Part shown: in pieces, positions 13,712-60,856 of the stretch
How the letters are laid out: the number at the start of each line of letters is the position of its first letter
Position numbering within the stretch: position 1 is the first letter of the stretch
Virus record (IMG/VR): IMGVR_UViG_3300029957_000007
Coordinates: 58,759-122,758 of that record
Length of the DNA stretch: 64,000 nucleotides
Reading direction: 5' to 3' (one strand)
Source of the DNA: a virus
Notes under the pieces: model-generated
The model's database searches: none
Seen by the model: only the letters and a program-made list of their open reading frames with translations
What the model was told of the DNA's origin: nothing
Made by a program: the position numbers and the translations under genes

Positions 13712-13748
13712 GGATCTCCCTCAGCAAAGAGGGAGATCCCTTTGTGTT
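13712..13748 (+). terminator. Rho-independent terminator closing the capsid operon
   Basis: Perfect 11-bp stem GGATCTCCCTC/GAGGGAGATCC, loop AGCAAA, followed by CTTTGTGTT. Confidence 0.8.
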
Positions 13749-13817
13749 GTGAAACAGCGAATTCACAACACAAATGGATCTACCACGTTTTTTTTCCACC
13801 CACAAGGGAGACAAGCA

Positions 13818-41822: not shown

Positions 41823-41860
41823 AAGGCCCAAGTCCGCAAGGACTTGGGCCTTTGGCGTTT
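41823..41860 (+). terminator. Terminator ending the morphogenesis/lysis operon
   Basis: Perfect 13-bp stem AAGGCCCAAGTCC/GGACTTGGGCCTT with GCAA tetraloop, T-rich tail; preceded by two smaller hairpins (41774-41818). Confidence 0.75.
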
Positions 41861-41981
41861 GGTGTTGGTTTTAGGCAAAAACACAGTTAACAAATAGTTT
41901 CCAAACCACAGCCTAACCACCAACGAACCGGATACTATATAGTACAGGATCAAATGGGACCAGGCTATCAAGGAGAATCAC

Positions 41982-52550: not shown

Positions 52551-52925
52551 ATGAGAATGCATACAATACAAGTGACATTCGACTGTGAAATAAAAGATCG
52601 ACCAGTGATCGTTTGTCTCTGTGGTAGTACAAGATTTATAGAGGCCTGGCAAAAGGCAAATCTTGAAGAGACCTTAGCTGGTAGAATTGTATTACAGATA
52701 GGGTGTAATACAAAAAGCGATGCTGATCTTCAAAGTATCGGCGTACTGACAGAAGAAACTAAAAAGGCTTTAGATGTTCTTCACAAAAGAAAAATTGATA
52801 TTGCTGATGAGATCCTCGTTTTGAATGTAAACGGATACATCGGCGATTCAACACGTTCAGAGATAGAATACGCTAAAGCTCATGGAAAGAAAGTTAGATG
52901 GCTTGAATCTGTGGAGAAACGATGA
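52551..52925 (+). CDS. Nucleoside deoxyribosyltransferase-like/DUF4406-like small Rossmann protein
   Basis: VCLCGSTRF...LHKRKIDIADEILVLNVNGYIGDSTRSEIEYA. Confidence 0.65.
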   Translation: MRMHTIQVTFDCEIKDRPVIVCLCGSTRFIEAWQKANLEETLAGRIVLQIGCNTKSDADLQSIGVLTEETKKALDVLHKRKIDIADEILVLNVNGYIGDSTRSEIEYAKAHGKKVRWLESVEKR

Positions 52926-54001
52926 AGATCATGATCGTGACAGGCAGCGGTGGATTGATCGGCGGCGAAGTAGTCGAGCACTTCATCAAGCTCGGTTGGA
53001 TGGTGCATGGCATTGACAACAATAACAGAAAGCGATTCTTCGGAGAAGCTGGTGACACAGCGTGGCGAGTGAATCAGCTTCTTGAGAAGTATCAAGGATC
53101 TTACTTCCACTATGATGCCGACATCAGCATGGCCACTGAGCTGGAAGAGGTATTCACAGTTGTCGATTCGCAAGACAAGATCTCAGCCATCGTTCACTGC
53201 GCTGCTCAACCATCTCATGATCTCGCAGCTCAGATCATGAGAAAGGACTTTGGTACCAATGTTGTTGGAACCTTCAACATGCTTTCTCTAGCCAAGAAGT
53301 ATTGTCCTGAGGCTCCTTTTGTTTTCACGAGCACAAACAAGGTCTACGGCGACAATCCGAACAAACTGAACTACTACGAGACAGAGACACGTTGGTCTCC
53401 ACTTGACAACTACGATCGAAAGATAGCTGAGTTTGGCTTCGATGAGACACTGAGCATTGACAACTGCAAGCACTCGCTCTTTGGAGCTGGGAAAGCAGCA
53501 GCTGATCTCTACGTTCAAGAGTTCGGTAGGTACTTCAACATGCCTACTGCTTGCTTGAGAGGTGGATGTCTCACAGGTCCCAATCACAGTGGTGTTGAGC
53601 TGCATGGATTCCTCAACTACTTGATCAAGTGCAATTTGGAAGGAAAGAAGTACACTGTGTTCGGCTACAAGGGTAAGCAAGTGAGAGACAACATCCATGC
53701 TTACGACGTGGCACGCTTCATTGAGGAGTTCATCGCTGCTCCGAAATGCGCTGAGATCTACAACATCGGAGGTGGGATGTCAAACTCCATCTCGATCTTG
53801 GAGAGCTTCAAGCTCATTGAGCAGATCACTAGTAAGCCAATGGAGTACGAGATCACAGATGCTGTGAGGAGTGGAGATCATCAGTGGTACGTCAGCGATC
53901 TGCACAAGATGCGAGTCCACTATCCGAAGTGGGAGATCACGAAGACGTTGAAGGACATCTTCAACGAGACAGTCGAGACGTGGCATCAACGTACTGCGTA
54001 G
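52922..54001 (+). CDS. NAD-dependent sugar-nucleotide epimerase/dehydratase (CDP-paratose 2-epimerase-like SDR)
   Basis: VTGSGGLIGG, HCAAQPSHD, STNKVYGD, LFGAGKAAAD, KQVRDNIH, YNIGGG. Confidence 0.9.
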   Translation: MKIMIVTGSGGLIGGEVVEHFIKLGWMVHGIDNNNRKRFFGEAGDTAWRVNQLLEKYQGSYFHYDADISMATELEEVFTVVDSQDKISAIVHCAAQPSHDLAAQIMRKDFGTNVVGTFNMLSLAKKYCPEAPFVFTSTNKVYGDNPNKLNYYETETRWSPLDNYDRKIAEFGFDETLSIDNCKHSLFGAGKAAADLYVQEFGRYFNMPTACLRGGCLTGPNHSGVELHGFLNYLIKCNLEGKKYTVFGYKGKQVRDNIHAYDVARFIEEFIAAPKCAEIYNIGGGMSNSISILESFKLIEQITSKPMEYEITDAVRSGDHQWYVSDLHKMRVHYPKWEITKTLKDIFNETVETWHQRTA

Positions 54002-54005
54002 TGCA

Positions 54006-54045
54006 CAGCTGTGCTTGTGGCGGTTAACCGCCACAAGCACAGCTG
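54006..54045. repeat. Perfect 40-bp palindrome
   Basis: CAGCTGTGCTTGTGGCGGTT|AACCGCCACAAGCACAGCTG is self-reverse-complementary. Confidence 0.95.
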
Positions 54046-54077
54046 CTTCGTATGGCGAAAAAAGCCCAACTTTTGGG

Positions 54078-54106
54078 TGTACAAAAAGTTTCCCTATCAG
54101 TATAAT
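54078..54106 (+). promoter_or_regulatory. Sigma70-type promoter of the early-type region
   Basis: TGTACA (4/6 to TTGACA), 17-bp spacer, perfect TATAAT; predicted start near 54113. Confidence 0.75.
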
Positions 54107-54112
54107 AGGTTC

Positions 54113-54625
54113 ACATTAAACCACGGTCTTTGACAAGCGGCTACCAACAAACGCCTCACGGCAAACGATTCGACGAGTTGGCACCTTCAGTAGTTAAGCA
54201 TACCTGCAATCTATACTGCACAGTGAACTCACTCGAAACCTGACTCCATCGATACCTGGTTGAAAACCCAGTGGTAGAGCTAAACAGCTTCCAAACGGCC
54301 CATATGCCAAGCCAAGTAGGATGAGGGAACAACTCACCTCATGATAACACCCAAACGAGTAGCCATATGGCAAAACCGAGGCATCAACCAACCCGGACCA
54401 TATGCGAGGTTAAAGGACCTTCCGGAAGGAAATCCCTGAGATAACTGAACACCAGCTGACCCGATGTGAGATCGGTACTTGCAGACTGGAAGATCGAATG
54501 GATCGAGTAAGTGAATCTCAGAGAACGAGAAAAAACAGTGAGGACCGAAGGAGCGGCTTCGACGACATCGACGCTTCTTCGGTCCCATTCAATGGAGTCG
54601 AGCATTGAGCTCGACTCCATTGATG
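54113..54625 (+). ncRNA. Putative large structured non-coding leader RNA
   Basis: No credible + strand gene; helices ATGAGG/CCTCAT, CTGAGAT/ATCTCAG, CCGAT/ATCGG and two tandem 14-bp stems (54542-54585, 54590-54622). Confidence 0.5.
54125..54136 (+). promoter_or_regulatory. boxA-like antitermination element
   Basis: GGTCTTTGACAA ~12 nt after the predicted start; resembles rrn boxA TGCTCTTTAACA. Confidence 0.45.
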
Positions 54626-54651
54626 CTTTGACTCACTCTCACGGAGCAACA

Positions 54652-54852
54652 ATGTTCAACAAATCATTGAGCACTCTCAGCCGCAAGGTCACCGTCCAAT
54701 CGATCAACAATAACATCGTTGCTGCTGAGATGCGAGATGGTACCAAGATCGAGTTCACCTTCAACGATGATCTGCAGAATCCTCCTTGCATCGGCGATCG
54801 AGTCGTCGTCGAGAAGACAGACAAGTGCAAGTGGATCCTGCCGCTCAAGTAG
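54652..54852 (+). CDS. Small OB-fold-like hypothetical protein (66 aa)
   Basis: ACTCACTC box + GGAG RBS favour ATG 54652 over GTG 54511. Confidence 0.65.
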   Translation: MFNKSLSTLSRKVTVQSINNNIVAAEMRDGTKIEFTFNDDLQNPPCIGDRVVVEKTDKCKWILPLK

Positions 54853-54884: not shown

Positions 54885-55334
54885 ATGAAGAAAGTGTCAA
54901 TCACTTCCAAAAACGGAAAGCTTGGTGAAACTATCATCCATACAAAGAAGGATGAATTGAACATCATCATCAACGTGAAGATGAAGGTGATCGCCAGTCA
55001 CTTGATCGGTGCCTTCGAAGGTGGATCGAACTATTGGTACGAGATCAAGAGCTACGTGATGCCGAAGAGGATCACGTTCCGCATCGACAAAGCTCATGTG
55101 TACGAATACGTCGACTTCCCAATGAGCGAAGGTGGTGCTGTGGTGTTGACCAGCACCGAAGAGAAAAAGAGCAAGGAGTACCGTCTAGATCTGCCGTCGA
55201 TCAGACGTGGTATCGCCATCATGGCGAAGAAGTACCCAAAGCACTTTGCTGATCTGATGGTGGAAGACGGCGACGCCACTACCAGCGATGTGCTGCTGCA
55301 GTGCTGCGTTTTTGGTGATGCGATCTACGGCTGA
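54885..55334 (+). CDS. Conserved phage hypothetical protein
   Basis: AFEGGSNYW...DGDATTSDVLLQCCVFGDAIYG motif typical of phage early proteins. Confidence 0.65.
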   Translation: MKKVSITSKNGKLGETIIHTKKDELNIIINVKMKVIASHLIGAFEGGSNYWYEIKSYVMPKRITFRIDKAHVYEYVDFPMSEGGAVVLTSTEEKKSKEYRLDLPSIRRGIAIMAKKYPKHFADLMVEDGDATTSDVLLQCCVFGDAIYG

Positions 55335-55338
55335 AACA

Positions 55339-55433
55339 GCAGCCGAGGGGAACCACACAGGTTGGTCGCTACGAGGCTGCCTGGCTGGACTGATTATCCA
55401 TATGGTCCAGCCAGGCAGTATCAACCTGCAGCC
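55339..55433 (+). promoter_or_regulatory. Structured intergenic element
   Basis: Perfect 14-bp stem 55377-55390/55405-55418; outer CAGGTTG/CAACCTG; GGCTGC has two alternative GCAGCC partners. Confidence 0.6.
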
Positions 55434-60755: not shown

Positions 60756-60829
60756 TGGGAGGTCGTTCAATGGTAGGACACTACACTTTGACTGTAGTAA
60801 TGTAGGTTCGATTCCTACTCTCCCAGCCA
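60756..60829 (+). tRNA. trnQ: tRNA-Gln(UUG)
   Basis: TGGGAGG/TCTCCCA acceptor (U1-A72), CTACA-CTTTGAC-TGTAG anticodon arm, CCA. Confidence 0.95.
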
Positions 60830-60856
60830 ACTATCAACTCACTCATTGAGGTCAAC

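What the first reader, a model, noticed from the sequence alone, without database searches (positions are those of the whole stretch)
54078..54651. ~510-nt structured non-coding leader with boxA-like element and tandem hairpins at the head of the early operon
Seen: a near-consensus sigma70 promoter, a boxA-like GGTCTTTGACAA, about 500 nt without a credible gene but with many helices, three CCATATG copies within ~110 nt, and two abutting 14-bp stems just before the first gene. TCGAGTAAGT (54503-54512) is 9/10 complementary to ACTCACTCGA (54227-54236), and so partly to the translation boxes. Known: boxA recruits NusB/NusE; HK022 put RNA is two adjacent stem-loops that antiterminate; phages encode large ncRNAs such as GOLLD and ROOL near tRNA arrays. 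Inference: a novel antiterminator RNA or large ncRNA controlling the ~10 kb early/tRNA transcript.
Basis: partly seen in the sequence, partly recalled or inferred. Interest (0 to 1): 0.75.

Follow-up and report, generated by a model that had tools for sequence, protein, structure and literature searches.

The report
Long untranslated leader of phage early operon
An uncultured 123-kb phage has about 540 gene-free bases between its one strong host-type promoter and its first early gene, ending in the two most stable hairpins of the genome; this looks like a T7-style early leader, and there is no evidence that it is a new large folded RNA.

Summary
No frame between 54002 and 54651 looks coding, and no Pfam, PHROG or Rfam family matches.

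- **Promoter.** TGTACA-17-TATAAT (54078-54106) is the only strong sigma70-like site in an intergenic stretch of the 122.8-kb record.
- **Tandem hairpins.** Those at 54542-54585 and 54589-54623 form the most stable 120-nt window in the genome.
- **Leader body.** The claim of a large structured RNA fails here. The body (54113-54535) folds no better than average for this genome (z -2.2 against a genome mean of -2.55). Its first 209 nt are less folded than 80% of genome windows. Its first 300 nt are C-rich and G-poor (C/G 1.45, top 1.4%), which resembles a Rho loading site.
- **boxA-like word.** It lies at +13 and is unique in the genome, but it has two mismatches to the published consensus.
- **Homologues.** None could be found, so covariation is untestable.
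- **Known RNAs.** There is no sequence likeness to HK022 put and no Rfam match to GOLLD or ROOL.

The best reading is a long 5' leader built like the T7 early leader: promoter, boxA, then a hairpin or processing site just before the first gene. This scan has reported similar boxA-headed phage leaders on other DNA. Interest is modest.

The parts
54006..54045 (+). Perfect 40-nt palindrome (18-bp stem, UUAA loop) 4 nt after the epimerase stop codon. It probably ends or stabilises the upstream transcript. It has no U tract.
   Evidence: fifth most stable 120-nt window of the genome
54078..54106 (+). Sigma70-type promoter TGTACA-17-TATAAT. The inferred start is near A54113. A6 and T4 tracts lie upstream at 54059-54074.
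   Evidence: the only site of 10/12 or better in an intergenic stretch on the + strand of the 122.8-kb record
54081..54152 (+). Three collinear blocks shared only with 41890-41928, the other module boundary. Here they are split by 24-nt and 13-nt inserts.
54125..54136 (+). boxA-like word GGTCTTTGACAA at about +13 to +24 of the inferred transcript
   Evidence: the only match in the genome to G[CTG]TCTTT[AG]A[AC]AA; two mismatches to GYTCTTTAANA (PMC5725501)
54113..54406 (+). C-rich, G-poor, weakly folded 5' part of the leader, resembling a Rho loading site
   Evidence: For 54107-54406, C/G is 1.45, in the top 1.4% of 300-nt windows. Folding z is about 0 for 54112-54320, less folded than 80% of genome windows.
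54300..54404 (+). Three CCATATG copies starting at 54300, 54363 and 54398. The second lies in the 10-nt palindrome GCCATATGGC.
54431..54526 (+). Moderately stable branched domain closed by a 9-bp helix (54433-42 with 54515-24)
   Evidence: z -3.4 for 54420-54535 against shuffles; not an outlier against the genome
54542..54585 (+). Hairpin A: 14-bp stem with one G-U, a 3-nt bulge, an inner 4-bp stem and a 5-nt loop. AAGGAG lies in its 5' arm.
54589..54623 (+). Hairpin B: 15 perfect bp and a 5-nt loop. It ends 7 nt before the ACTCACTCT box.
   Evidence: together with hairpin A it is the most stable 120-nt window of 4088, z -10
54631..54654 (+). Translation start region of the first early gene: box ACTCACTCT, SD GGAG (54643-54646), ATG 54652
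   Evidence: coding signal starts here; the public gene call is the 66-aa form

Best explanation
The stretch is the long 5' untranslated leader of the early operon, which carries small genes and tRNA genes. It is transcribed by the host RNA polymerase from the promoter at 54078-54106.

- **5' part.** It is an unstructured, C-rich, untranslated RNA of the kind on which Rho loads. The boxA-like word at +13 may recruit NusB/NusE, so that polymerase crosses the leader and the untranslated tRNA stretches without Rho-dependent termination.
- **3' end.** The two long stem-loops just before the first ribosome-binding site most likely act on the RNA. They could be a double-strand-specific (RNase III-type) processing site, or a 5' stabiliser that sets the end and stability of the early message.

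Shown:
- the stretch is non-coding;
- the promoter is the only one of its kind;
- the hairpins are exceptional;
- the composition is skewed.

Inferred:
- transcription from this promoter;
- Nus loading at the boxA-like word;
- Rho sensitivity;
- RNA processing at the hairpins.
For: - **No gene.**
- **Promoter.** It is the only strong sigma70-like site in an intergenic stretch. It lies just after the hairpin that closes the upstream module.
- **Gene orientation.** 172 of 178 genes in my crude gene call lie on the + strand.
- **No second promoter.** None lies between the hairpins and ATG 54652, so the first gene must be read through them.
- **Strand.** Hairpin A has a G-U, and the related hairpin at 55376 has two. 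These stems are therefore complete only in + sense RNA. The leader body folds at z -2.2 on + and +0.1 on -.
- **Composition.** C/G is 1.45 and folding is weak in the 5' part.
- **boxA-like word.** It is unique in the genome and lies about 13 nt after the inferred start.
- **Same layout in T7.** Promoters A1-A3 lie at 498-750, an exact GCTCTTTAACAA at 813, folded RNA follows, and gene 0.3 starts at 925. That the T7 boxA works is reported in PMC3709561.
Against: - There are no transcript data.
- The host is unknown.
- The boxA-like word has two mismatches to the gamma-proteobacterial consensus, in which single changes can abolish function (PMC5725501).
- Part of that word belongs to a block shared with 41903, and that copy has no boxA.
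- Ten words within 2 mismatches of the boxA consensus occur on the + strand by chance-like scatter.
- No homologue exists to show conservation.
- Nothing shows that RNase III or any other nuclease cuts the hairpins.
- The three CCATATG copies are not explained by this reading.
Confidence: 0.5

Rival explanations
1. The stretch is an RNA that acts in its own right. It could be a new cis-acting processive antiterminator: the tandem hairpins riding on the polymerase like HK022 put. Or it could be a discrete non-coding RNA of about 510 nt ending at the hairpins.
For: - Two abutting stem-loops spanning 82 nt lie downstream of an early promoter. putR also lies 270 nt from its promoter (PMC9378689).
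- The hairpins are the strongest fold in the genome.
- MFE and centroid nearly coincide on the + strand.
Against: - There is no sequence likeness to the HK022 put-like elements.
- The stems are perfect rods without the bulges and triplex of put (PMC9378689).
- The body is no more folded than the genome average.
- No Rfam family matches.
- No canonical terminator downstream needs read-through.
- No separate promoter exists for the first gene.
- No homologues were found, so there is no covariation evidence.
Confidence: 0.1
2. The important parts act as DNA. The three CCATATG repeats, one of which lies in the palindrome GCCATATGGC, would be binding sites for a phage regulator that shuts off or times the early operon, or iterons of an origin. 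The palindromes would be protein or cruciform sites.
For: - The CCATATG cluster is far above chance.
- A fourth copy lies at 55398, in the next intergenic gap.
- The element sits at a module boundary, next to the replication and nucleotide-metabolism genes.
- Blocks are shared with the other module boundary.
Against: - The G-U pairs in the stems favour RNA.
- There is no AT-rich segment and no change in GC skew.
- Arms of 14-18 bp are longer than operators need.
- Two of the four CCATATG copies (54300 and 55398) lie in predicted RNA hairpin loops, which fits an RNA role equally well.
- No candidate binding protein was identified.
Confidence: 0.12
3. The stretch is mostly spacer without function, for example decayed early genes. 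Only the promoter and ordinary stabilising hairpins are under selection.
For: - Two box-like relics without SD or start lie inside the leader: ACTCACTCG at 54227 and ACTCACCTC at 54332 (read in the sequence).
- The body folds like average genome sequence.
- The genome is rich in long hairpins everywhere: 39 against 3-7 in shuffles.
Against: - No long ORF remnants remain; the + strand ORFs are at most 37 aa.
- The C/G bias is strong.
- The CCATATG cluster is non-random.
- Phage genomes seldom keep 500 nt of junk.
- The hairpins rank first in the genome.
Confidence: 0.2
4. The stretch hides one or more small protein genes.
For: ORFs of 25-37 aa on + and 58-84 aa on - exist. My crude gene caller picked one minus-strand ORF.
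Against: - No coding signal appears in any frame.
- Pfam and PHROGs give no hit.
- The atlas recognition score is low for the one ORF submitted, the 84-aa minus-strand ORF.
- No SD lies at proper spacing, by my reading of the sequence.
- Nearly all genes in my crude call are on +.
- Public gene calls start the next gene at 54652.
Confidence: 0.05

Closest known systems
Phage T7 early leader (host promoters A1-A3, boxA, RNase III site R0.3, gene 0.3)
   Same: Host-type promoter(s), a boxA word in the leader, folded RNA directly before the first early gene, and a leader of similar length. In T7 the leader is 427 nt from A1. That the T7 boxA works is reported in PMC3709561. The R0.3 site is from my own knowledge (Dunn and Studier 1983).
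   Different: - T7 has three tandem promoters and an exact host boxA 100 nt before the gene. Here there is one promoter and a 2-mismatch word at +13.
- Here the hairpins are two perfect rods, not one stem with an internal loop.
- Nothing has been measured here.
rrn-type boxA antitermination (NusB/NusE/NusA/NusG/SuhB) on untranslated RNA
   Same: A boxA-like word lies just after a promoter, ahead of a long untranslated, Rho-prone RNA and an operon that holds tRNA genes. The consensus and its roles beyond rRNA are described in PMC5725501.
   Different: - There are two mismatches to GYTCTTTAANA.
- No boxB or boxC partner was recognised.
- The host and its own boxA are unknown.
boxA-headed long leaders of phiEco32-like phages and of a Ligilactobacillus phage-plasmid
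   Same: Early promoter(s), then boxA, then a gene-free RNA of 0.5-0.9 kb before the first early gene.
   Different: Those have exact host boxA copies, tandem promoters and conserved folds among relatives. Here the boxA is imperfect, the body is not unusually folded, and no relatives are available.
HK022 putL/putR
   Same: Two adjacent stem-loops of about 70-80 nt lie downstream of an early promoter.
   Different: - There is no sequence likeness.
- put stems are irregular, with a triplex and bulges (PMC9378689).
- The hairpins here lie 430 nt from the inferred start.
- No downstream terminators were seen.
Lambda pL-N leader (nutL boxA/boxB, then an RNase III-sensitive stem before the N ribosome site)
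   Same: The order is the same: promoter, boxA, long stem, first early gene. This comparison rests on my own knowledge (Kameyama et al. 1991; Wilson et al. 1997) and was not checked with a tool.
   Different: No boxB hairpin follows the boxA-like word. No N-like protein was identified.

Membership tests
boxA (Nus factor loading site) | Match to the consensus GYTCTTTAANA (gamma-proteobacteria; PMC5725501) | tested here: not met
   GGTCTTTGACA has G at position 2 and G at position 8. As I recall, G at position 8 is usual in Firmicutes; no tool checked this.
boxA (Nus factor loading site) | Identity or near-identity with the host's own rrn leader boxA | not testable with these tools
   The host is unknown. 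The record is an uncultured virus, and no relatives are drawn for it.
boxA (Nus factor loading site) | Position in the 5' part of a transcript, just after a promoter and ahead of untranslated RNA | tested here: met
   It lies about 13 nt after the inferred start and is followed by about 515 untranslated nt.
HK022 put RNA | Sequence likeness to putL/putR | tested here: not met
   A profile of the two put-like elements located in HK022 gives no hit between 54000 and 54700, even at E up to 100. Rfam holds no put family.
HK022 put RNA | Two stem-loops of about 70 nt with irregular stems (triplex, bulged U) that bind the beta' zinc domain | tested here: inconclusive
   Two stem-loops are present (82 nt), but they are perfect helices. 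Binding cannot be tested here.
Large phage ncRNAs (GOLLD, ROOL and others in Rfam) | Match to the family covariance model | tested here: not met
   No Rfam hit at gathering score. At E up to 10, only chance-level hits on the palindromes appear.
Structured ncRNA in general | Folding energy beyond the local background, and covariation among homologues | tested here: not met
   The body has z -2.2 against a genome mean of -2.55. Only the terminal hairpins are outliers. Covariation is untestable because no homologues were found.
RNase III processing site (T7 R0.3 type) | About two turns of double-stranded RNA in an early transcript, cut by RNase III | tested here: inconclusive
   Stems of 14+4 bp and 15 bp are present. 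Cleavage cannot be tested.
Intrinsic terminator | GC-rich stem followed by a U tract | tested here: not met
   The tails CATTCAATGG and TGCTTTGACT fail the scan. True terminators of this phage do have U tracts, for example at 41823-41874.

The most novel reading that the evidence does not exclude
The 82-nt pair of perfect stem-loops, or the whole RNA of about 510 nt, is a new kind of cis-acting RNA. It would modify the host polymerase or protect the early transcript in a lineage of large phages only distantly related to Bacillus phage G. The three CCAUAUG words, one of them in a predicted loop, would be its protein or RNA contact points.
Probability: 0.08. Interest if true: 0.65.

Novelty: new member of a known kind. 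Interest (0 to 1): 0.3.

Why it matters
If the boxA-like word and the hairpins work as proposed, this extends a strategy beyond coliphages. A phage borrows the host's rRNA-type antitermination to push polymerase across a long untranslated early leader and tRNA genes. The phage here belongs to a very different, uncultured lineage: its capsid protein is only 36% identical to that of Bacillus phage G, the closest cultured phage. The stretch also marks the probable single entry point of host transcription into this genome, which helps in annotating its early, middle and late modules. As it stands it is a plausible but unproven regulatory leader, not a new RNA class.

Tried and rejected
**Search for homologues: all negative**
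- blastn of the stretch against 50,697 phage records found nothing.
- Close-relative scans of IMG/VR with the 149-aa neighbour and with the epimerase found nothing.
- An alignment of the 149-aa family brought in 80 viral and 80 metagenome loci. The best has 53% aa identity. None shares a second neighbouring gene next to its 149-aa homologue, and none resembles the leader by blastn. nhmmer, run on the first 80 loci only, also found nothing.
- The capsid protein finds one 10-kb fragment at 87% identity. Among cultured phages only Bacillus phage G matches, at 36%.
- The pattern of the shared blocks finds nothing in viral contigs or genome contigs.
- The first gene product (66 aa) is an orphan.
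The other contigs that encode the identical neighbours (two more for the 149-aa protein, one more for the 66-aa protein) could therefore not be fetched.

**Ideas rejected**
- **CsrA-type sponge:** GGA words are enriched, but they are paired in the predicted fold.
- **ACTCACTCA box as a T7-type promoter:** no single-subunit RNA polymerase gene was found in the record. However, the same search also found nothing in any of the 14 control genomes, so this negative is weak.
- **A strong hairpin before every box:** this holds for only 3 of 11 boxes.
- **N-terminal extension of the first gene into hairpin B:** there is no coding signal and no homologue.
- **Covariance model of put:** not built, because the two-sequence consensus fold was unreliable.

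Full report
**Setting**

The window is the last 64 kb of an uncultured virus record of 122,758 nt, estimated 76% complete.
- 172 of 178 genes in my crude gene call lie on the + strand.
- The closest cultured phage by capsid protein is Bacillus phage G, at 36% identity. This is an isolated lineage.
- The finding lies between an NAD-dependent epimerase gene (52922-54001, Pfam PF01370) and a run of small genes and five tRNA genes. The epimerase gene ends a block of replication and nucleotide-metabolism genes.
- The run of small genes continues over the end of the record to its start. ACTCACTCA boxes that abut the Shine-Dalgarno sequence occur at both ends.

**Check of the observation**

Every item is at its stated place.
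- The promoter TGTACA-17-TATAAT lies at 54078-54106.
- GGTCTTTGACAA lies at 54125-54136.
- CCATATG starts at 54300, 54363 and 54398.
- The stems lie at 54542-54585 and 54589-54623.
- The 9/10 complementary 10-mers are as described.
- The gap has no coding signal in any of the six frames between about 53980 and 54600. Both flanking genes score clearly.
- Nine short ORFs match nothing in Pfam or PHROGs. An atlas look-up gave only sub-threshold hits.
- The public gene call for the next gene is the 66-aa form starting at 54652. That protein has no relatives.

**What is beyond chance**

- **Hairpins.** The two terminal hairpins fold with z = -10 against shuffles. They make the most stable of all 4088 windows of 120 nt in the genome. 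The palindrome at 54006-54045 ranks fifth.
- **Clustering of long stems.** Four of the genome's longest stems (18, 14+4, 15 and 16 bp) lie within 1.4 kb.
- **Promoter.** It is one of only three + strand sites with 10/12 or better and a good -10, and the only one in an intergenic stretch.
- **CCATATG.** The three copies lie within 105 nt, against 11 on the whole + strand.
- **boxA-like word.** It is the only match in 245 kb (both strands) to a broad boxA pattern.

**What is not beyond chance**

- The leader body (54113-54535) folds at z = -2.24 on + and +0.10 on -.
- However, 423-nt windows across this genome average z = -2.55, and 57% of them fold at least as well as the body.
- The first 209 nt have z about 0, so they are less folded than 80% of genome windows.
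- 'Many helices' therefore reflects ordinary folding in a genome that is generally hairpin-rich: 39 long hairpins against 3-7 in shuffles.
- The 9/10 complementarity is of a kind expected several times in 540 nt. That figure is my own uniform-composition estimate, not a tool result. The pairing is absent from the predicted fold.

**New observations**

- **Composition.** The first 300 nt have C/G = 1.45, in the top 1.4% of the genome (mean 0.89). Being also untranslated and weakly folded, this segment has the profile of a Rho loading region.
- **Shared blocks.** Three collinear blocks (ACAAAWAGTTTCC, AAACCACRGYCT, ACCAACRAAC) occur only here and at 41890-41928. That site is the other major module boundary and also follows a strong terminator hairpin. 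In the leader the blocks are split by a 24-nt insert carrying the TATAAT and by a 13-nt insert that completes the boxA-like word. The two control regions are therefore related. The boxA-like word is not shared, which weakens but does not remove the boxA reading.
- **Fourth CCATATG.** A fourth copy lies in the 12-nt loop of a 16-bp hairpin between the second and third early genes (55376-55419). Copy 1 is also in a predicted loop.
- **G-U pairs.** Hairpin A (one) and the 55376 hairpin (two) are complete only in + sense RNA.

**Comparative evidence**

None could be obtained.
- There is no DNA match among phage records.
- The flanking proteins have no close relatives in IMG/VR.
- 160 loci carry homologues of the 149-aa neighbour. 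None has a second neighbouring gene beside that homologue, and none resembles the leader.
- One 10-kb fragment of a closer relative covers only head genes.
- Covariation, the test that would settle the RNA question, is therefore open.

**Known families**

- **Rfam:** nothing matches.
- **put:** Rfam has no put model. I therefore located the two put-like elements of HK022 by their mutual similarity and searched the window with their profile. No hit falls in the leader. put RNAs are about 70 nt, V-shaped, and carry a triplex and bulges (PMC9378689). The stems here are plain rods.
- **boxA:** the published consensus is GYTCTTTAANA, and single changes can abolish function (PMC5725501). The word here differs at positions 2 and 8.
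- **Terminators:** neither hairpin has a U tract, whereas real terminators of this phage do. No other promoter serves the first gene. The hairpins must therefore be transcribed through.

**Best reading**

The layout matches the phage T7 early leader. In T7, host promoters lie at 498, 626 and 750, an exact GCTCTTTAACAA at 813, folded RNA follows, and gene 0.3 starts at 925. The T7 boxA is functional according to PMC3709561. The RNase III site R0.3 before gene 0.3 is from my own knowledge.

I read the stretch as follows:
- It is the long 5' leader of the early operon.
- A Rho-prone 5' part is possibly guarded by a Nus-loading word.
- The two stem-loops are an RNA-level processing or stabilising element directly before the first ribosome site.
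- My confidence in this reading is about 0.5.

The CCATATG cluster remains unexplained. It could mark protein-binding sites on DNA or on RNA.

This scan has noted boxA-headed long phage leaders before on other DNA: phiEco32-like phages and a Ligilactobacillus phage-plasmid. Those notes were leads. I verified only the T7 part.

**Verdict**

Novelty is a new member of a known kind. Interest is 0.3.

Noticed in passing
window 41890-41928 and 54081-54152: Three collinear sequence blocks occur only at these two places in the record. Each set lies just after a strong hairpin that ends a gene module. The two control regions appear to be paralogous, and the leader copy carries two inserts.
   Followed up: partly
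window 55376-55419: A 16-bp hairpin with two G-U pairs lies between the second and third early genes. It shows CCAUAUGG in its 12-nt loop, the same word that is clustered three times in the leader.
   Followed up: partly
window 60756-60845 and 54589-54639: tRNA-Gln ends 7 nt before an ACTCACTCA box, the same distance as from hairpin B to its box. This could mean that processed 5' ends lie just before the box. Only 3 of 11 boxes have a strong structure upstream.
   Followed up: partly
whole record (G000): The genome as a whole folds better than dinucleotide shuffles: mean z is -2.55 for 423-nt windows. It holds 39 hairpins with stems of 11 bp or more, against 3-7 in shuffles, and many of them lie inside genes.
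   Followed up: partly
window 54885-55334: The 149-aa product belongs to a widespread phage protein family without a Pfam model. Conserved words are EGGSNYW and DDAT(T/G)SDVLLQC. At least 277 viral and 495 metagenome stretches encode a relative.
   Followed up: partly
window 13712-13774: Another pair of abutting hairpins (11 and 13 bp) lies after the head-gene cluster. Here T-rich tails follow, so these look like tandem terminators.
   Followed up: no
window 54624-54650: In the predicted fold, UGCUUUG pairs with CGGAGCA. This would hide the Shine-Dalgarno sequence of the first gene and show the ACTCACTCT box in an 11-nt loop. Other boxes do not show this.
   Followed up: partly
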